In this document: one piece after another, positions 1-4,636 of the stretch | Numbering within the stretch: the stretch's first letter is position 1 | Layout: every line of letters begins with the position of its first letter | Source of the DNA: Escherichia phage RB3 | Sequence record: KM606994 | Strand: one strand, 5' to 3' | Length of the DNA stretch: 64,000 nucleotides | The notes under the pieces: generated by a model | The model's input: only the letters and a program-made list of their open reading frames with translations | Databases searched by the model: none | Told to the model about the DNA's origin: nothing | Position numbers and translations under genes: made by a program

Positions 1-375
1 CCATATCCCAGATAATATTGCTGCTGTAAAAATATTAACAAGTATGGTTAAAAGAATCCAATCTCCTATTCTGTCTATTGGATTTTTTATAAAAAAGTAA
101 AATACGAATGATGTCACAGGAAGACTAATAATATACCACAGAATCATAATTTTATCTGTGAACCAATCAGCGTTCGTTAACTTAGCGCGACCATTATGAA
201 TACACACGAATTTATCATCTGTTATAATAGATGGCTTAGCTGCTTGATATCCCATTCTAAACTCCCTAATCAACAAATTTTTCATATCTTCGGAACAACC
301 ATTCCAGTCAACTCTATCAACTGAAATGCCATCATCCCCATCATCTAAATCATACCAGCGAGTTTTTAAAATCAT
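1..375 (-). CDS. hypothetical protein, partial (N-terminus at 375, C-terminus beyond window start); hydrophobic C-terminal segments
   Basis: Open minus-strand frame from ATG 375-373 to window edge; AGGAA Shine-Dalgarno upstream; ATGA overlap with stop of upstream ORF; not in ORF track because incomplete. Confidence 0.45.
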   Translation of the reverse strand, partial: MILKTRWYDLDDGDDGISVDRVDWNGCSEDMKNLLIREFRMGYQAAKPSIITDDKFVCIHNGRAKLTNADWFTDKIMILWYIISLPVTSFVFYFFIKNPIDRIGDWILLTILVNIFTAAILSGIW

Positions 376-734
376 TTAATTTTCCTACAATCACTCACAA
401 ACTCTTCCATTGATTCTTTTTCAATATAAGACATGTAGCTATTATATTCTTTTAATTGTATTTTGTAATCTTTTTTTCTTTGCCAATTTATTTTAAAATT
501 ATCATAATGAAAATATAACATGGTACCAAAGAATGAAAATAATGAAATAATTTTAGTATAGTGAAGTTCACTCCAAACTTCTATTATATTTACTGTGCCG
601 TCAATGTTTAAAATAAGACAGTCAATTAACAATCCAAAAAGACTACCCGCAAGAGCTGCAGCCAACGCCACAGCAAAAATTAAAAATGACTCAGGAAGCG
701 AATATTTGACTTTATTTAGTTTTGGCTTTTGCAT
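372..734 (-). CDS. hypothetical small membrane protein (N-terminal hydrophobic helices, basic C-terminus)
   Basis: 120-aa ORF, ATG start at 734; hydrophobic stretch FLIFAVALAAALAGSLFGLLI; same architecture as the adjacent 130-aa ORF. Confidence 0.5.
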   Translation of the reverse strand: MQKPKLNKVKYSLPESFLIFAVALAAALAGSLFGLLIDCLILNIDGTVNIIEVWSELHYTKIISLFSFFGTMLYFHYDNFKINWQRKKDYKIQLKEYNSYMSYIEKESMEEFVSDCRKIK

Positions 735-1108
735 CGTGATTCCTTAACAAATTTCATAATTTCATCAAATTCATACGCAGCAAGTTTAAGCTGATGTTCC
801 TTTTTAATCTTTTTACACTGTGCTTTCCAATCACGTACGCGTTTACGATAATGCCTTCCTTGATACCAGTATCCTACCCAATTTACAGGTACTAATAAAA
901 ATGGAACTATCATTGGAAGAATTAGTGTTGACGCAAATATTATATTAGATTCAATATTAGTCATAACATCTATAACTATTCCAACCCCCAGTAGAATTAC
1001 AAATGATACAGCTATTACAGGACCTATTAATACATCAGTAGAAATTATCTGACGCTTTAATTCATACTTTAAGGGTTTACTTGGAAGATACATTGATGGC
1101 TTTGACAT
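716..1108 (-). CDS. hypothetical small membrane protein
   Basis: 130-aa ORF, ATG start; two predicted TM helices (VIAVSFVILLGVGIVI, LILPMIVPFLLVPV) followed by a basic K/R-rich tail. Confidence 0.5.
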   Translation of the reverse strand: MSKPSMYLPSKPLKYELKRQIISTDVLIGPVIAVSFVILLGVGIVIDVMTNIESNIIFASTLILPMIVPFLLVPVNWVGYWYQGRHYRKRVRDWKAQCKKIKKEHQLKLAAYEFDEIMKFVKESRCKSQN

Positions 1109-1685
1109 ATTCTCTGCATTCCTTCACAAATTTTTCTAGTAATAAATCGCTTTCAAAATTGGGATTTTCTACGAATTTATCAAAAAGATCATCAACAATA
1201 GTTAAGATATTCTTTTTACTAAGAATACGTTTATTTTCATGCTTCGTTTCAGAATCAACTATAAGAGTAAAGAAATATTTCTTTCCCTGAAATTTTACCG
1301 TAGTATCAATATAGAATAAATTTGACTTTTGTAAGTTACGTTTAAACCATGCGTCACTTAAACTATAAACGCCAAGATAATCATAATCGTCGTTTAAATA
1401 ACAAACTGTCCATTCAGGAGAAATGAAATCAGTAAATTCAACATCAAAATCACACGTCAATGAATGAATTGATTCAATACTGTTAATAAGTATTCCAGGA
1501 CGTATTAAAGACTTTTTACCTCTGGAAAATCTTCCAGAAAGACTTTCATCAGTTTCATATGAAGAACCCCAATAATAATTACGTCCTTCTGCCATACGTT
1601 TAAGAGCATGTAGTAATTGGTCTGGAACATCAACCTGTCTTTGGAACTCTTCAAACATTGAATTGAAATCACTTTGCATTTTCAT
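1077..1685 (-). CDS. hypothetical protein
   Basis: 202-aa ORF in minus-strand early gene array; no motif recognised. Confidence 0.5.
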   Translation of the reverse strand: MKMQSDFNSMFEEFQRQVDVPDQLLHALKRMAEGRNYYWGSSYETDESLSGRFSRGKKSLIRPGILINSIESIHSLTCDFDVEFTDFISPEWTVCYLNDDYDYLGVYSLSDAWFKRNLQKSNLFYIDTTVKFQGKKYFFTLIVDSETKHENKRILSKKNILTIVDDLFDKFVENPNFESDLLLEKFVKECREYVKAINVSSK

Positions 1686-1706
1686 TCCTATTTACTCCAA
1701 GTAATA

Positions 1707-1720
1707 GGGGCCGAAGCCCC
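1707..1720 (-). terminator. GC-rich hairpin (GGGGCC-GAAG-GGCCCC) after stop of ORF 1727-2320; putative terminator or RNA-stability element
   Basis: Perfect hairpin immediately downstream of stop codon; no strong T-run, so weak as an intrinsic terminator. Confidence 0.35.
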
Positions 1721-1726
1721 TTATCA

Positions 1727-2320
1727 TTATTTCAGAGAATTAATGTATTCCTGAACATCGGCAGAAGTAGTTTCAACCCCAGAAATATTACCATTAAAGG
1801 TTTCAACTCGAGCAAGAGTATCTTCAATATCAACCTTAGTCAGCGCTGCAATTTCAACTACATCATCGGCAGTACTAATTCCAAGTGCATTCGCTGCTCG
1901 AGTTTCACGGATATATTCCAATTTAACTGCAAGTTCTTGGCGAGCATCATCCAATTCAACTACTTTCTTGGCGATTTCAATTCGCATTTCAGCATACCCA
2001 TCAGCTTTAGTAGTTAACTGTTCAGCTGTTCGACGATATAGCAAGCCGAGTTTAGCATGCATTGTTACATCTTGACCTTCGGAAAGAAGCTTGCGAATTT
2101 CACGCTCTTTTGATTCGGCTTGCCGATTCTTTTCAACAATAAGTTCACGAATACGTTTTTCTTCATTAATAGATTTAATAGAAGCAGTTTTTAGATCTTT
2201 AATTTTATCAAGCAGTTTTGCTGCTGCGGCAGTATACTGTTCTTCAACAGATAGATTTTTAGCCATAGCAGAACCAAGTTTAGTGCGAATAAACTCAACA
2301 ATTTTCTTCAGTGTGTTCAT
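1727..2320 (-). CDS. coiled-coil protein, weak PspA/IM30-like character
   Basis: 197-aa ORF; heptad-rich, charged sequence ([27 protein letters not shown]); resemblance to PspA is pattern-level only. Confidence 0.5.
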
Positions 2321-2363
2321 AGTATTTCCTTAGGTTAATTAAGATTTAAAATCCATGAGAGTA

Positions 2364-2539
2364 TTATACTCCGGATAGTTTGTAAACTATTTCAACATCG
2401 CCTTTTGCTGCTTTATAACCTTCAGCCCAAGATACAACCGAGTTTTTATCTGAAGATTCAAATTCTGGCATTGGGCTTTCGCCAATGTTCACACAGTATG
2501 TTTCTTCATTTTCGTCAAACCAAATAATTAAAGTAGTCA
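2364..2539 (-). CDS. small hypothetical protein (58 aa), below ORF-track cutoff
   Basis: ATG at 2539 to TAA at 2366-2364, fills gap between flanking minus-strand genes; its 3' end overlaps a GTTTAC promoter-like motif. Confidence 0.3.
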
Positions 2540-2609
2540 TTTATTTCTCCGTTTTCTGTATTTGTTTTGATAAGTCTATAATAACACCGTCCTTGGCGTT
2601 TGTACACAA

Positions 2610-2873
2610 TTATTTCATATTATTGAAATATTCTTCTGCGATTTCATCGTTATCATGGTAAACTTTAGAAGACAGTTTAACATAACCTTCAGCAGTGAAC
2701 ATGTTAATCACAACCTTTACAGTATACCACTGACCATCTTCATTACCCATTACTGCGTAAGTTTCAAACATCGGATGGTCAGGACCGATAACTTTAATAT
2801 CATTCACTGTACGACCAAAATCTTCTGAAACACATTTCATAAAGAAGTTGAACAGTTCGCCGTAATTATCCAT
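2610..2873 (-). CDS. hypothetical protein (87 aa)
   Basis: ORF track gives 2610-2885 with TTG start; ATG at 2873 is preceded by GGAGAATAAA Shine-Dalgarno. Confidence 0.5.
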   Translation of the reverse strand: MDNYGELFNFFMKCVSEDFGRTVNDIKVIGPDHPMFETYAVMGNEDGQWYTVKVVINMFTAEGYVKLSSKVYHDNDEIAEEYFNNMK

Positions 2874-2916
2874 TTTATTCTCCAAGTTGTTTTCTGTATC
2901 AGTAGTTGATAGTTGT

Positions 2917-2946
2917 ATAGTACCATGGAAGAACAGGGATGTAAAC
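2917..2946 (-). promoter_or_regulatory. T4-type early promoter (GTTTAC -18 nt- TACTAT)
   Basis: Minus-strand GTTTAC at 2946-2941 and TACTAT at 2922-2917, same architecture as five other copies in window. Confidence 0.45.
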
Positions 2947-3077
2947 AGTTTTGTGAAAAAATTTTTAAAAAGTTTTAGGGAATTCTAGGGCGGGGAGGGG
3001 CAATTAAAAGATAGGATAATATATTATAAAGGATATAAACTAAATGATGCCTAGAGAGACAAGGAAAGGCCTAGATA

Positions 3078-3106
3078 CCAAAAAGCCCCAACCTTTCGGT
3101 CGGGGC
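3078..3106 (-). terminator. rho-independent terminator ending the tRNA/stable RNA transcription unit
   Basis: Minus-strand hairpin GCCCCGACC-GAAA-GGTTGGGGC followed by TTTTT. Confidence 0.6.
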
Positions 3107-3158
3107 TAAGCCTTGCGGCAACCTTGTCGGGGTTCCACCTGCTAAGGCAAGTGTTTGT

Positions 3159-3301
3159 ACGAAACGCCGGGATTCGAACCCGGTTATTAAGCAGTTGACG
3201 CTACTCAATATTTTTAAAAGGCCATATCTCGACCATATCCGAACGTTCCGTCAAAAACGCTACTCGGCTTACGGCAAAGATATTTCCTCGAATCGATAAT
3301 T
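3159..3301 (-). ncRNA. putative tRNA-like stable RNA (about 140 nt), boundaries approximate
   Basis: No ORF; canonical T-arm CCGGG-TTCGAAT-CCCGG followed by 7-nt acceptor-like strand, but no matching 5' acceptor strand within tRNA distance; internal repeat TTGAGTAGCGT twice. Confidence 0.3.
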
Positions 3302-3423
3302 TGGTGCGCCGTTTCTGCTGTGATATAAGGGGGCATTAACAAAACATAAAGATTTATTAATGCCAGTCCTTAAACAGGGAACATCAGTCCGACGACTTGC
3401 CGGTAGCGACCCGGCTTCTTGTC
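3302..3423 (-). ncRNA. putative stable RNA (about 120 nt) ending in GGCGCACCA, boundaries approximate
   Basis: Starts directly after tRNA-Arg; hairpins GCCGG-GTCGCTA-CCGGC and GGCATTAA..TTAATGCC; 3' end resembles acceptor plus CCA. Confidence 0.3.
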
Positions 3424-3499
3424 TGGTCGAGGCAGTAGGGATCGAACCTACGACCCAGGACTTAGAAGGTCCTTGCTCTTCCTTCTGAGCTATGCCTCG
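3424..3499 (-). tRNA. tRNA-Arg (anticodon UCU)
   Basis: Manual fold: acceptor CGAGGCA/TGCCTCG, anticodon loop CTTCTAA, T-loop GGTTCGATCC, encoded CCA. Confidence 0.85.
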
Positions 3500-3503
3500 T
3501 ATT

Positions 3504-3578
3504 TGGCGGACGTGATAGGATTCGAACCTATAACCAATCGCTTAACAGGCGATCGCTCTGCCATTGAGCTACACATCC
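3504..3578 (-). tRNA. tRNA-Asn (anticodon GUU)
   Basis: Manual fold: acceptor GGATGTG/CACGTCC, D-arm GCTC-AATGGCA-GAGC, anticodon loop CTGTTAA, T-arm ATAGG-TTCGAAT-CCTAT, CCA. Confidence 0.85.
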
Positions 3579-3582
3579 AAAT

Positions 3583-3669
3583 TGGTGGGGAGTGATGGAG
3601 TCGAACCACCCGAGTCGCAATGACAATGGATTTACAGTCCACACCGCTACCTCTACGGGATAACTCCCC
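3583..3669 (-). tRNA. tRNA-Tyr (anticodon GUA), class II with long variable arm
   Basis: Manual fold: acceptor GGGGAGT/ACTCCCC, anticodon loop CTGTAAA, long variable arm, T-loop TTCGACT, CCA; 87 nt. Confidence 0.8.
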
Positions 3670-3678
3670 TAATTAATT

Positions 3679-3753
3679 TGGTGGCCCTGGGTGGAATTGA
3701 ACCACCATCTGGCGATTATGAGTCGCTTGCTTGAACCTTCCAGCTACAGGGCC
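3679..3753 (-). tRNA. tRNA with CAU anticodon (Ile if lysidine-modified, otherwise Met)
   Basis: Manual fold: acceptor GGCCCTG/CAGGGCC, anticodon loop CTCATAA, T-loop GGTTCAATTCC, CCA; sits where T4 has tRNA-Ile. Confidence 0.85.
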
Positions 3754-3754
3754 T

Positions 3755-3830
3755 TGGCGCTGATTGACGGAATCGAACCGCCGACATCCTCATTACAAGT
3801 GAGGTGCTCTACCTACTGAGCTAAATCAGC
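3755..3830 (-). tRNA. tRNA-Thr (anticodon UGU)
   Basis: Acceptor GCTGATT/AATCAGC, D-loop TAGCTCAGTAGGTAGAGC, anticodon loop CTTGTAA, T-loop GGTTCGATTCC, CCA. Confidence 0.9.
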
Positions 3831-3835
3831 AAAAC

Positions 3836-3925
3836 TGGCGGAGGCGATAGGATTTGAACCTATGAGTCGCCGGAGCGACTGCCGGTTTTCAAGACCGGTG
3901 CATTAAACCACTCTGCCACGCCTCC
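3836..3925 (-). tRNA. tRNA-Ser (anticodon UGA), class II
   Basis: Acceptor GGAGGCG/CGCCTCC, anticodon loop CTTGAAA, long variable arm, T-loop GGTTCAAATCC, CCA; 90 nt. Confidence 0.9.
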
Positions 3926-3927
3926 AG

Positions 3928-4001
3928 TCTCCATACAAGGATTTGAACCTTGGACCTCCTGATCCCAAATCAGGCGCTCTACCAAACTGAGCTACACGGA
4001 G
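3928..4001 (-). tRNA. tRNA-Pro (anticodon UGG)
   Basis: Acceptor CTCCGTG/TATGGAG with G-U pairs, D-loop TAGCTCAGTTTGGTAGAGC, anticodon loop TTTGGGA, T-loop GGTTCAAATCC; CCA not encoded. Confidence 0.9.
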
Positions 4002-4011
4002 TAAATTAAAT

Positions 4012-4085
<74 letters not shown>

Positions 4086-4090
4086 AAATT

Positions 4091-4177
4091 TGGTGCGAGA
4101 AGTGGGACTCGAACCCACAAGGAAATCATTCCGCAGCATTTTAAGTGCTGTGCCTTTACCAATTTGACCATTCTCGC
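4091..4177 (-). tRNA. tRNA-Leu (anticodon UAA), class II
   Basis: Acceptor GCGAGAA/TTCTCGC, anticodon loop CTTAAAA, long variable arm, T-loop GGTTCGAGTCC, CCA; 87 nt. Confidence 0.9.
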
Positions 4178-4178
4178 G

Positions 4179-4251
4179 CTGGGAATAAAGGACTCGAACC
4201 TTTGCATCCTGGAATCAAAATCCAGTGCCTTACCAACTTGGCTAATTCCCA
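4179..4251 (-). tRNA. tRNA-Gln (anticodon UUG)
   Basis: Acceptor TGGGAAT/ATTCCCA, anticodon loop TTTTGAT, T-loop GGTTCGAGTCC; CCA not encoded; 1 nt from tRNA-Leu. Confidence 0.9.
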
Positions 4252-4348
4252 ATTATTAACAAAGGCTCTCTAACAAGAACCCTTGATGATAGAGGGTATT
4301 AATCAGTGCGGTATGAGTTAATAATAACAAATAATTCTTAAAGCATAT

Positions 4349-4636
4349 TTACCATTTATGATAATACGTATTTACGATACATTCAAGACCCAAAGGATTC
4401 TTGAAAATATCATATTCAAGAGGACCTTTTTCTGTTTCAATAAAGAAATCAAAATTTACTATATTAAATTTACGGTCTTCCTTCACTAATTTAACCTGAG
4501 AAGATGAACGGTCAATGTAAACCTTTTCAACTTCAAAACATGTTAAAATGCCATAATCATCAATCAAGTCTTTAGCTGCTTCTTGATCATATTTATATCC
4601 ATTTTCAATGGATGATACTTTAGCATAAAGAATCAT
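4349..4636 (-). CDS. hypothetical protein (95 aa), ip-locus accessory gene
   Basis: ORF tightly packed after the 136-aa ORF (2-nt gap); no recognisable motif. Confidence 0.5.
   Translation of the reverse strand: MILYAKVSSIENGYKYDQEAAKDLIDDYGILTCFEVEKVYIDRSSSQVKLVKEDRKFNIVNFDFFIETEKGPLEYDIFKNPLGLECIVNTYYHKW

What the first reader, a model, noticed from the sequence alone, without database searches (positions are those of the whole stretch)
1..2885. Early accessory module downstream of the tRNAs: paralogous small membrane proteins plus a coiled-coil PspA-like protein
At least six minus-strand ORFs with GTTTAC promoters include two or three small proteins of the same build (N-terminal transmembrane helices, basic tail) and a 197-aa heptad-rich protein faintly resembling PspA/IM30. 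Membrane-targeted early proteins in T-even phages often act in superinfection exclusion or lysis timing. This set does not obviously correspond to the nudE and e.x genes I would expect from T4.
Basis: inference. Interest (0 to 1): 0.5.

Follow-up and report, generated by a model that had tools for sequence, protein, structure and literature searches.

The report
T4 e.2–e.8 genes; e.6 is PspA-like
This stretch is the well-catalogued but functionally unknown e.2–e.8 early gene cluster of a T4-type phage, and its 197-residue protein e.6 proves to be a very divergent phage copy of the bacterial membrane-repair protein PspA/Vipp1, followed by proteins that share an unexplained C-terminal signature.

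Summary
The window is 100% identical to phages RB5/6/7/9/10, which are T4-type (Tequatrovirus). Region 1-2885 (minus strand) holds T4 genes e.2 (cut by the window edge), e.3, e.4, e.5, e.6, a 58-aa ORF in place of T4 e.7, and e.8.

Two of its structural hunches hold.
- **e.6 is PspA-like.** It has no Pfam hit itself. A profile that includes distant relatives hits Vipp1 first among all PDB sequences (E 9e-5, collinear 1-146). Two relatives pass Pfam's PspA_IM30 threshold. The AlphaFold model has the PspA layout, and Vipp1 fills the top eight Foldseek PDB hits.
- **e.3 and e.4 are probable paralogues.** Both are two-helix membrane proteins with basic tails (hhalign 86%; reversed control 0.7%).

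New here: an e.5 homologue directly follows e.6 in about 37 of 40 related loci. e.2, e.3, e.5 and many neighbouring ORFs share the C-terminal motif [LIVF][EDN]xF[IV]xxC[RK]. It occurs in 99/468 ORFs downstream of e.6 and 0/484 upstream.

Published T4 data show early expression and no fitness effect of knock-down. Function is inferred: a phage-encoded membrane-maintenance module. Interest is moderate.

The parts
1..375 (-). e.2, N-terminal 125 of 162 codons (the gene runs off the window start). It has a soluble N-terminal domain, then two hydrophobic helices. The basic tail and the C-terminal motif NNFITECRKLK lie outside the window.
   Evidence: The ATG at 375-373 overlaps the e.3 stop (ATGA).
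372..734 (-). e.3, 120 aa. Build: basic N-terminus, two membrane helices, basic tail. C-terminal motif FVSDCR at 384-401.
   Evidence: (phrog_2330, E 2e-60).
716..1108 (-). e.4, 130 aa, probable paralogue of e.3. It has the same build, with a relaxed motif FVKESR at 734-751.
   Evidence: phrog_2604, E 2e-69; hhalign 86%, E 4.7e-6, 114 columns; reversed control 0.7%.
1077..1685 (-). e.5, 200-202 aa (RB5 annotation starts at 1679). Soluble alpha/beta protein. The C-terminal helix carries the invariant F186/C190/R191 motif (FVKECR, 1113-1130). It is the constant neighbour of e.6.
   Evidence: (phrog_2607, E 3e-109).
1706..1721 (-). GC-rich hairpin with a UUCG loop (GGGGC-UUCG-GCCCC) in the 41-nt e.6-e.5 spacer. 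There is no clear U-run. A hairpin at this position is present in nearly all related loci, with different stem sequences.
1727..2320 (-). e.6, 197 aa, a divergent PspA/IM30/Vipp1 (ESCRT-III superfamily) homologue. Predicted helices: alpha0 at 3-20, hairpin at 25-80 and 86-145, and shorter C-terminal helices.
2358..2387 (-). T4-early-type promoter-like site (GTTTAC-N17-TATAAT) in front of e.6, inside the 3' end of the 58-aa ORF.
   Evidence: T4 e.6 RNA is classed as early.
2364..2540 (-). 58-aa acidic ORF (RB69ORF145c-like, phrog_5461). It occupies the position of T4 e.7.
2578..2606 (-). Sigma-70-like site (TGTACA-17-TATTAT, with TG) before the 58-aa ORF.
   Evidence: This is a consensus match only.
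2610..2873 (-). e.8, 87 aa, acidic, function unknown. The mechanical ORF extends to a TTG at 2885.
   Evidence: phrog_2678, E 3e-56; 98.9% identical to T4 e.8.
2917..2946 (-). T4-early-type promoter-like site (GTTTAC-N18-TACTAT) before e.8.

Best explanation
The region is the e.2-e.8 early, dispensable gene cluster of a T4-type phage identical to RB5.

**e.6.** Its conserved core gene, e.6, encodes a shortened and highly divergent member of the PspA/IM30/Vipp1 branch of the ESCRT-III superfamily. The most likely action, inferred by analogy with that superfamily, has three steps:
- e.6 is made soon after infection.
- It binds the cytoplasmic face of the host inner membrane through its N-terminal amphipathic helix.
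- It polymerises through its helical hairpin into a coat or ring that limits ion leakage and keeps the membrane energised.

This would matter while the phage punctures the membrane, shuts off host transcription (so the host could not induce its own psp operon) and later loads the membrane with holin.

**The partners.** The genes translated after e.6 are e.5 (soluble, always adjacent) and the two-helix membrane proteins e.4, e.3 and e.2. They carry a common C-terminal helix motif, [LIVF][EDN]xF[IV]xxC[RK]. I infer that this motif is a shared docking peptide, which would let these proteins act at the same site, possibly on e.6 itself.

**Shown:** gene identities, expression of the T4 orthologues, homology and fold of e.6, the e.6-e.5 linkage, and the motif with its confinement to this gene block.

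**Inferred:** membrane binding, polymerisation, the physiological role, and any e.6-motif interaction.
For: **Identity**
- 100% DNA identity to RB5/6/7/9/10.
- Same gene order as RB14 and T4.
- 84-99% protein identity to T4 e.2-e.8.

**e.6 is PspA-like**
- A profile of 40 family members hits Synechocystis and Nostoc Vipp1 as eight of the nine best among 177,635 PDB sequences. E-values are 9.3e-5 to 1.7e-3, and the alignments are collinear from residue 1 to about 146.
- Family members P0065 and P0066 match the e.6 profile at E 1.5e-21 and 3.6e-20 over their full length. They pass Pfam's gathering score for PF04012 PspA_IM30: 35.1 and 39.0 bits against 33.9.
- hhalign against enterobacterial PspA gives E 1.5e-4 over 167 collinear columns. 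Reversed-sequence controls give E 0.3-0.4 over 25 columns or fewer.
- The AlphaFold2 model (pLDDT 76.5, and 85-95 over the hairpin) has alpha0, the hairpin and short C-terminal helices.
- The top eight Foldseek PDB hits are all Vipp1 (listed probability 1.00), followed by archaeal CdvB2.
- The N-terminal helix has a hydrophobic moment of 0.45, against 0.42 for E. coli PspA.
- A homologue in Serratia phage Kevin is deposited as 'PspA protein'.

**Linkage**
- An e.5-family gene starts 35-65 nt after e.6 in nearly all of the 40 loci.
- Small membrane proteins follow it in most enterobacterial genera.

**Motif**
- F186, C190 and R191 are among the few invariant or near-invariant residues of the e.5 family, together with M1 and N98.
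- The strict motif occurs in 99/468 ORFs downstream of e.6 and 0/484 upstream, p = 8e-34.
- All six Arg codons and both Cys codons are used, and the distance to the next start codon varies.
- Within the 64-kb window the strict motif occurs only in e.3 and e.5.

**Expression**
- T4 e.2-e.8 RNAs are early, and all the proteins were detected by mass spectrometry (PMC9697503 supplement).
Against: - RB5/T4 e.6 itself has no PspA_IM30 hit at E <= 1.
- A profile of close relatives alone shows no hhalign signal to PspA (probability 0.2%).
- That close-relative profile also finds no canonical PspA among 1.84 billion representatives. The link therefore rests on transitivity through distant members and on a predicted fold.
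- Long helical hairpins are common. Foldseek E-values are only about 1e-3, TM-scores are 0.43-0.56, and prefoldin alpha also scores E 9e-4 in the sequence search.
- e.6 is about 25 residues shorter than PspA, and its conserved C-terminal third has no counterpart in PspA.
- No PspB, PspC or PspF homologue is present.
- Knock-down of T4 e.2-e.8 gave no fitness effect in laboratory culture (PMC11879866 supplement), so no phenotype yet supports any role.
- No test of membrane binding, polymerisation or e.6-motif contact was possible here.
- The Aeromonas-phage loci have the e.6-e.5 pair without adjacent membrane proteins.
Confidence: 0.6

Rival explanations
1. e.6 is simply a coiled-coil hairpin protein with an unrelated role (scaffold, regulator or adaptor). 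On this reading its resemblance to PspA/Vipp1 reflects shared heptad composition and a common helical-hairpin architecture, not homology or a shared mechanism.
For: - e.6 has no direct Pfam hit.
- The close-relative profile gives no signal to PspA.
- Other coiled-coil proteins (prefoldin, PI3K iSH2, SMC arms) appear among the weaker hits.
- HMMER reports large bias terms.
Against: - Vipp1/PspA are specifically the top hits in two independent searches, one by sequence profile and one by fold. Both give full-length collinear alignments that start at residue 1.
- Two family members exceed Pfam's curated PspA_IM30 threshold.
- Reversed-sequence controls, which keep composition and heptad character, lose the signal.
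- Distant members begin with MGILSRIKEF or MSIFQRLKSIF, like PspA's MGIFSRF.
Confidence: 0.15
2. The small membrane proteins e.2, e.3 and e.4 act, with or without e.6, in superinfection exclusion or lysis timing, as Imm, Sp, RI and RIII do.
For: - The T4 orthologues are transcribed early, and e.4 and e.2 proteins appear in the early and middle classes.
- The inner-membrane hairpin topology, with both ends basic, is plausible for such roles.
- The genes are dispensable in single-infection laboratory assays, as exclusion genes are.
Against: - None of the four libraries returned a match named Imm or Sp, or any other characterised membrane protein. There were only sub-threshold hits to DUF5418 and to a Bfi1 immunity family.
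- From general knowledge, T4 exclusion and lysis inhibition are already accounted for genetically by imm, sp, rI, rIII and t.
- Nothing here tests the phenotype.
Confidence: 0.12
3. e.6 is a counter-defence or host-manipulation factor rather than a repair protein. It could mimic PspA to hold host PspF inactive or to decoy PspA-linked immune sensors. Alternatively, it could neutralise defence effectors that kill by depolarising the membrane.
For: - It is a PspA-like protein in a hyperplastic, accessory, early-expressed region.
- A review records that phage infection is a PspA trigger and cites work on a CBASS cyclase that is regulated by reversible conjugation (PMC7619361).
Against: - No PADLOC or anti-defence family match was found.
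- Conservation at 50-60% identity across Escherichia, Klebsiella and Aeromonas phages, and presence in Ackermannviridae, fits a general housekeeping role better than a strain-specific counter-defence.
- PspF-binding residues could not be assessed.
Confidence: 0.1
4. The shared C-terminal motif is a by-product of nucleotide-level constraints: an embedded ribosome-binding site for the overlapping downstream gene, or a recombination junction. On this reading it is not a protein-level signal.
For: - In the window the motif codons lie just upstream of, or across, the next gene's start.
- In about 40% of instances the next ATG lies 2-10 nt after the Arg codon.
Against: - All six Arg codons, both Cys codons and both Phe codons are used.
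- The distance to the next start ranges from -29 to +372 nt.
- The number of residues after the motif ranges from 0 to 24.
- The Phe and Ile/Val positions lie outside any Shine-Dalgarno sequence.
Confidence: 0.05

Closest known systems
Bacteriophage T4 ORFs e.2, e.3, e.4, e.5, e.6, e.8 (UniProt P32273, P32274, P39222, P39223, P39224, P39226), with the RB14/RB69 58-aa ORF in place of e.7
   Same: Same genes, order, strand and position between nudE/e and rnaC/rnaD/tRNAs. Protein identity is 84-99%. The T4 orthologues are early-transcribed and their proteins have been detected.
   Different: - RB5 e.2 is full length (162 aa, with the second membrane helix, basic tail and motif), whereas T4 e.2 is truncated to 102 aa.
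- T4 e.7 is replaced by a 58-aa ORF.
- RB5 lacks segB and has ten tRNAs against eight in T4.
PspA / IM30 / Vipp1 (Pfam PF04012), bacterial branch of the ESCRT-III superfamily (Liu et al. 2021, PMC8281802)
   Same: Shared features are the N-terminal amphipathic helix, the long alpha1-alpha2/3 hairpin and the shorter following helices. Sequence alignment is collinear over about 146-170 residues. Top sequence and fold hits are Vipp1/PspA.
   Different: - It is 197 aa against 222 aa (PspA) or about 267 aa (Vipp1).
- Identity is about 15%, and e.6 itself falls below Pfam detection.
- It has a distinct conserved C-terminal third.
- It is phage-encoded, with no pspF, pspB or pspC.
- Its neighbours are e.5 and motif-bearing membrane proteins.
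- Function is untested.
Phage genes already labelled PspA-like: Serratia phage Kevin 'PspA protein' (PP869623), Acinetobacter phage ME3 'PspA/IM30 family protein', and the pspA-like gene of Jug jumbo phages (PMC12880540)
   Same: These show that phages carry PspA-family genes. The Kevin and Vi01-type proteins belong to the same family as e.6.
   Different: Those are closer to canonical PspA or are in other phage families. For T4 and its close relatives the gene is still listed as unknown function. I found no paper in the searched library linking e.6 to PspA.
PspB/PspC and LiaI-type small membrane partners of PspA (from general knowledge of the Psp and Lia systems)
   Same: These are small inner-membrane proteins with cytoplasmic tails, encoded next to a PspA-family gene.
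   Different: There is no sequence relationship: Pfam returned nothing for e.2-e.4. The analogy is positional only, and interaction is untested.

Membership tests
T4 e.x ORF set (e.2-e.8) | Position and order between nudE/e and the rnaC/rnaD/tRNA cluster, on the same strand | tested here: met
   Annotated RB5, RB14 and T4 records. tRNAs lie at 3424-4251.
T4 e.x ORF set (e.2-e.8) | High sequence identity to the T4 proteins | tested here: met
   e.6 99.0%, e.8 98.9%, e.5 94.0%, e.3 88.3%, e.2 86.3%, e.4 83.8%. PHROG matches have E 1e-37 to 1e-109. T4 e.7 is absent.
PspA/IM30 (Pfam PF04012) | Match to the family HMM at or above the gathering score | tested here: not met
   e.6 of this window has no hit at E <= 1. 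Two distant members of the same family (P0065 at 35.1 bits, P0066 at 39.0 bits, against 33.9) do pass. They are linked to e.6 at E about 1e-20.
PspA/IM30 (Pfam PF04012) | Significant profile-level similarity to solved PspA/Vipp1 sequences, collinear from the N-terminus | tested here: met
   The A2 profile gives Vipp1 at E 9.3e-5 to 1.7e-3, residues 1-146 against 1-147. hhalign against PspA gives E 1.5e-4 over 167 columns, and reversed controls give E 0.3-0.4. E. coli PspA 4whe alone scores only E 1.1.
ESCRT-III superfamily fold | Alpha1-alpha2/3 helical hairpin followed by shorter helices; structural match to family members | tested here: met
   This rests on a predicted model only. Helices are 25-80 and 86-145, with pLDDT 85-95. 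Foldseek ranks 1-8 are Vipp1 and rank 9 is CdvB2, with TM 0.43-0.56.
PspA/Vipp1 | N-terminal amphipathic helix alpha0 that binds membranes | tested here: inconclusive
   Helix 3-20 is predicted but at low pLDDT (about 47). Its hydrophobic moment is 0.45, against 0.42 for PspA. Binding was not testable.
PspA/Vipp1/ESCRT-III | Self-assembly into rings, rods or carpets on membranes | not testable with these tools
   This needs purified protein and electron microscopy, or multimer prediction with interface scores.
Psp operon | Co-encoded PspF, PspB or PspC | tested here: not met
   No Pfam or NCBIfam hit to these families for any of the six proteins.
Imm / Sp superinfection-exclusion proteins | Sequence membership in the Imm or Sp families | tested here: not met
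   No match named Imm or Sp was returned by Pfam, PHROGs, NCBIfam or PADLOC for e.3 or e.4. e.2 was not scanned against these libraries. The phenotype was not testable.
e.3/e.4 two-helix membrane protein family (paralogy claim) | Full-length profile similarity above a composition-matched control | tested here: met
   hhalign gives probability 86%, E 4.7e-6 over 114 columns, against 0.7% for the reversed control. jackhmmer converges. Pairwise BLAST (E 0.05) and single-sequence phmmer chains do not connect them. e.2 shares only the last 18 columns (probability 96%).
Intrinsic terminator (for the 1706-1721 hairpin) | GC-rich stem followed by a U-run | tested here: inconclusive
   The stem is present and its position is conserved. 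In this window the stem is followed by AUUACUUGG, which is not a U-run. Some relatives do have U-runs.

The most novel reading that the evidence does not exclude
T4-type and Vi01-type phages encode their own ESCRT-III-like membrane-remodelling system. On this reading e.6 polymerises on the inner membrane. A polymorphic set of early proteins, both soluble (e.5 family) and membrane-embedded (e.2/e.3/e.4 and many others), is recruited to it through the shared C-terminal helix [LIVF][EDN]xF[IV]xxC[RK]. That helix would act as an adaptor code comparable in logic to the motifs that recruit partners to eukaryotic ESCRT-III.
Probability: 0.15. Interest if true: 0.8.

Novelty: new member of a known kind. 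Interest (0 to 1): 0.55.

Why it matters
- T4 is the best-studied large lytic phage, yet about half of its genes, including e.2-e.8, have no assigned function. A 2025 genome-wide knock-down study still lists them as unknown.
- e.6 is a PspA/Vipp1-type protein conserved in more than a thousand T4-like genomes and present in Ackermannviridae. This gives a concrete, testable hypothesis for an old question: how T-even phages keep the host inner membrane sealed and energised after tail puncture, during host shut-off and during prolonged lysis inhibition.
- It would extend the ESCRT-III superfamily to virulent phages of enterobacteria.
- The shared C-terminal motif links about a fifth of the ORFs in this hyperplastic block. 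It offers a handle for finding what these otherwise unrelated small proteins have in common.

Tried and rejected
- **Direct family scans.** Pfam, NCBIfam, PADLOC and PHROGs scans of six of the proteins (e.2 was not scanned) gave nothing informative beyond PHROGs of unknown function.
- **Single-sequence PDB search.** phmmer of e.6 against PDB found nothing. The close-relative profile A1 gave Vipp1 only at E 1.4-3.3 and no hhalign signal.
- **Representative-library search.** The 1.84-billion-representative search with A1 found only 45 e.6-type proteins and no canonical PspA.
- **PspA homologue search.** It returned only enterobacterial sequences at 86% identity or more. The PspA profile used for hhalign was therefore shallow.
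- **e.3 vs e.4 by simple methods.** Pairwise BLAST was not significant. Single-sequence phmmer networks do not connect e.2, e.3 and e.4.
- **Co-folding e.6 with e.5.** I did not attempt a linker fusion, because the tool returns no interface measures and would refuse non-window sequences.
- **Literature.** Searches for e.6, for a phage PspA in T4, and for phage-encoded ESCRT-III found no paper on this.
- **The 'host specificity protein' label.** Some e.6 homologues carry it. I treated it as an automated carry-over with no supporting evidence.
- **Nucleotide-level explanation of the motif.** I rejected it on codon usage and variable spacing.


Full report
**1. What the sequence is**

Megablast of window 1-4400 finds 100% identity over the full length to Enterobacteria phages RB5, RB6, RB7, RB9 and RB10. 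Identity is 98.3% to RB14, and more than 1,000 T4-like genomes match. RB5 is classified as Straboviridae, Tequatrovirus, species Tequatrovirus RB3.

In the RB5, RB14 and T4 records the minus-strand genes at this place run, in transcription order, as follows:
- tRNA cluster, rnaD, rnaC
- e.8
- a 58-aa ORF, where T4 has e.7
- e.6, e.5, e.4, e.3, e.2
- nudE, e

In window coordinates:

| Gene | Coordinates | Note |
|---|---|---|
| e.8 | 2610-2873 | |
| 58-aa ORF | 2364-2540 | replaces T4 e.7 |
| e.6 | 1727-2320 | |
| e.5 | 1077-1679/1685 | two candidate starts |
| e.4 | 716-1108 | |
| e.3 | 372-734 | |
| e.2 | 1-375 | first 125 of 162 codons |

Identity to the T4 proteins is 99.0% (e.6), 98.9% (e.8), 94.0% (e.5), 88.3% (e.3), 86.3% (e.2) and 83.8% (e.4). 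All six complete ORFs match PHROGs of unknown function at E 1e-37 to 1e-109.

These T4 ORFs are catalogued rather than characterised, however.

**2. Checking the observation**

- **ORFs.** They are real.
- **e.3 and e.4.** Each has a basic N-terminus, two hydrophobic segments and a strongly basic C-terminal third, with 10 and 14 K+R. e.2 has the same build in its C-terminal half, after a soluble N-terminal domain.
- **Promoters.** T4-early-type GTTTAC promoters occur only twice in the region, before e.8 (2946-2917) and before e.6 (2387-2358). A further sigma-70-like site precedes the 58-aa ORF.
- **Coupled genes.** e.5, e.4, e.3 and e.2 overlap by 32, 19 and 4 nt, and e.2 overlaps nudE. They read as one coupled unit behind e.6.
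- **RNA families.** Rfam finds only the ten tRNAs in 1-4400.

**3. Published data on the T4 orthologues**

- In a time-resolved transcriptome and proteome study (PMC9697503, supplement), all of e.2-e.8 are early at the RNA level and all were detected as proteins. e.4, e.5, e.7 and e.8 fall in the early protein class, e.2 and e.6 in the middle class, and e.3 in the late class.
- In the CRISPRi-ART genome-wide knock-down study (PMC11879866, supplement), e.2-e.8 are listed as function 'Unknown', prior essentiality 'UNKNOWN' and result 'Not Fit'. I read 'Not Fit' as no fitness effect.
- The label 'early accessory module' is therefore correct.

**4. e.6 is a divergent PspA/Vipp1-type protein**

*The direct tests failed.*
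- No Pfam hit at E <= 1.
- No PDB hit with the single sequence.
- With a 32-sequence alignment of close relatives (A1), Vipp1 appears only at E 1.4-3.3.
- An exhaustive HMMER search of 1.84 billion representatives with A1 found only 45 proteins. Nearly all the full-length ones are 195-209 aa, and none is a canonical PspA.

*Adding the distant representatives changed the picture.* I added them to make a 40-sequence alignment (A2).
- Eight of the nine best hits among 177,635 distinct PDB sequences are Vipp1/PspA, from Synechocystis and Nostoc. E-values are 9.3e-5 to 1.7e-3, aligned collinearly from residue 1 to about 146.
- Five of the 40 members hit Pfam PspA_IM30 individually. Two exceed the curated gathering score (33.9 bits): P0066 at 39.0 bits and P0065 at 35.1 bits, covering profile positions 2-143. 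These two match the close-relative e.6 profile at E 3.6e-20 and 1.5e-21 over their full length.
- P0066 lies on a Vi01-like phage contig, next to UvsX and gp41 homologues.
- hhalign of A2 against a shallow enterobacterial PspA alignment gives E 1.5e-4 and probability 51% over 167 collinear columns. Reversing either alignment, which preserves composition and coiled-coil character, gives E 0.3-0.4 over 25 columns or fewer.

*The fold agrees.*
- The AlphaFold2 model has mean pLDDT 76.5, and 85-95 over the hairpin. Helices are at 3-20, 25-80, 86-145, 151-160, 166-174 and 186-196.
- Against PDB, Foldseek ranks Vipp1 structures 1-8 (E 1e-3 to 6e-3, listed probability 1.00). Archaeal ESCRT-III CdvB2 follows.
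- Against viral models, after e.6 relatives in T4-like phages and Ackermannviridae, the next named hit is 'PspA/IM30 family protein' of Acinetobacter phage ME3.
- The N-terminal helix is amphipathic to the same degree as that of E. coli PspA. Distant family members start with MGILSRIKEF or MSIFQRLKSIF, recalling PspA's MGIFSRF.

*Caveats.*
- The link for the T4/RB5 protein itself is transitive plus a predicted fold. A1 alone shows no hhalign signal.
- TM-scores are modest (0.43-0.56).
- Helical hairpins attract unrelated coiled-coil hits; prefoldin alpha scores E 9e-4.
- The conserved C-terminal third of e.6 has no PspA counterpart.

I put homology to the PspA/Vipp1 family at about 0.8.

**5. 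Distribution and prior knowledge**

- tblastn finds e.6 in 1,098 phage records: Escherichia, Klebsiella, Shigella, Aeromonas, Enterobacter, Yersinia and others. It is usually called hypothetical, and sometimes 'host specificity protein'.
- A distant member finds homologues throughout Ackermannviridae (Vi01, phiMAM1, phiEa2809). In Serratia phage Kevin the gene is deposited as 'PspA protein'.
- I found no paper in the searchable library that connects T4 e.6 with PspA or describes a T4-encoded ESCRT-III-like protein.
- A pspA-like gene has been mentioned in passing for jumbo gut phages (PMC12880540).
- The kind is therefore known and some relatives are already labelled. The assignment for T4-type e.6 appears to be unpublished.

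**6. The neighbours**

I fetched 40 loci containing e.6 relatives.
- Single-pass searches detect e.3, e.4 and e.5 only in the closest genera.
- Iterative searches show an e.5-family gene starting 35-65 nt after e.6 in about 37 of 40 loci, including the Aeromonas phages. e.6-e.5 is thus a conserved pair.
- In most enterobacterial genera, one to three small membrane proteins follow.

On paralogy:
- e.3 and e.4 are joined by jackhmmer.
- They are also joined by hhalign on separately built alignments: probability 86%, E 4.7e-6, 114 columns, against 0.7% for the reversed control.
- Pairwise BLAST and single-sequence networks do not join them.
- I accept probable paralogy for e.3 and e.4. e.2 shares only its last 18 columns with e.3 (probability 96%).

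**7. A shared C-terminal motif**

- The e.5-family alignment has very few conserved positions. Apart from the initiator Met they are N98, F186, C190 and the nearly invariant R191. The F[VI]xxCR sequence they form also ends e.2 (FITECR) and e.3 (FVSDCR), and appears in relaxed form in e.4 (FVKESR).
- Across the loci, the strict pattern in the last 30 residues occurs in 99 of 468 distinct same-strand ORFs downstream of e.6 and in 0 of 484 upstream (Fisher p = 8e-34). Orthologues are counted more than once, so this p-value overstates independence. Several unrelated families do carry the motif.
- The consensus is [LIVF][EDN]xF[IV]xxC[RK].
- It is used with all six Arg codons and both Cys codons, at variable distance from the stop and from the next start. 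This argues for selection on the peptide.
- In the 64-kb window the strict motif occurs only in e.3 and e.5; e.2's copy lies outside the window.
- In Vi01 and Kevin, the proteins after the PspA-like gene end in similar sequences (IVDKARKR, IINGARKF). This is anecdotal.
- What the motif does is unknown. A common docking helix is my inference, and e.6 is a candidate partner only because it is the constant neighbour.

**8. e.5, e.8 and the 58-aa ORF**

- **e.8 and the 58-aa ORF.** Both are small acidic proteins with no informative match.

**9. Mechanism proposed**

*Shown:* an early-expressed, dispensable block whose conserved core is a PspA/Vipp1-like protein. It is followed by a fixed partner gene and by membrane proteins that share a C-terminal peptide.

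*Inferred,* from what PspA, Vipp1 and ESCRT-III proteins do (PMC8281802 and the reviews found):
- e.6 binds stressed inner membrane through alpha0.
- It polymerises through its hairpin.
- It preserves membrane integrity and proton-motive force during infection.

A phage copy would make sense because, from general knowledge, T4 shuts off host transcription, so the host could not induce its own sigma-54-dependent psp operon.

*Rivals:* a generic coiled coil; exclusion or lysis-timing roles for the membrane proteins; and a counter-defence or PspF-decoy role. None is excluded by experiment.

**10. Verdict**

- It is useful in another. The PspA hunch is supported, and the block shows two features that I did not find described: the conserved e.6-e.5 pair and the shared C-terminal motif.
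- Novelty: a new member of a known kind.
- Interest: 0.55.

Noticed in passing
window 1686-1726 (hairpin 1706-1721); loci L004-L042, spacer after e.6: A GC-rich stem-loop, often with a UUCG loop, sits in the e.6-e.5 spacer in about 29 of 30 distinct spacers. The stem sequences differ (GGGGC/GCCCC, GGAGGAC/GUCCUCC, AGAGGGC/GCCCUCU and others), so the structure is maintained by compensatory change. Only some are followed by a U-run. It may set the e.6:e.5 expression ratio or protect the e.6 mRNA 3' end.
   Followed up: partly
window 1690-1702 and the same place in the related loci: Just 3' of that hairpin, most loci have UUGGAG, UGGGAUAAUA or a similar sequence. GGAG in an early intergenic region is the kind of site cut by the T4 RegB endoribonuclease (from general knowledge). 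This was not tested.
   Followed up: no
L003 2653-2961 (T4 e.2) versus L002 2887-3375 (RB5 e.2): T4 e.2 is 102 aa and ends after the first hydrophobic helix. RB5 e.2 is 162 aa, with a second helix, a basic tail and the FITECRKLK motif. T4 has about 160 nt of non-coding DNA between e.2 and nudE, so the reference phage seems to carry a truncated copy.
   Followed up: partly
window 2364-2540; L004 1674-2218: RB5 has a 58-aa acidic ORF where T4 has e.7 (111 aa). One metagenomic relative (L004) has both side by side, so this is gain or loss of a gene rather than divergence.
   Followed up: partly
window 3424-4251: There are ten tRNA genes against eight in T4, with Asn and Tyr extra. The homing endonuclease gene segB, which splits the T4 cluster, is absent. 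The tRNA called Met (CAU) by ARAGORN is annotated as tRNA-Ile (modified CAU) in RB14 and T4.
   Followed up: no
phage records: Many e.6 homologues are deposited as 'host specificity protein' (ACLAME 1259), and one Klebsiella phage homologue as 'tail completion protein'. These look like automated labels with no support from sequence or fold.
   Followed up: no
L047 3489-4885 (Vi01), L048 3489-5554 (Kevin), L045 6742-8124: In Ackermannviridae the PspA-like gene lies between the gp41 helicase and DNA ligase genes. Small proteins follow it, several with membrane helices, and some end in IVDKARKR, IINGARKF or IIKHARSR. These resemble the T4-type F[IV]xxCR motif with Ala in place of Cys.
   Followed up: partly
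loci L010-L042, 7500-12400 (downstream of e.6): At least 43 further small ORFs of several unrelated families, both soluble and membrane, carry the same C-terminal motif. Examples are LFLEYCR, AFIKQCRR, NFINSCRI and SFIDDCRR. The motif marks the whole hyperplastic block between e.6 and nudE.
   Followed up: partly
window 716-1108 (e.4): There are weak sub-threshold hits to Pfam DUF5418 (E 0.027) and to the NCBIfam Bfi1-family immunity protein (E 0.0016, 18 bits against a cut-off of 100). These are probably membrane-helix composition.
   Followed up: no
[not shown]
   Followed up: partly
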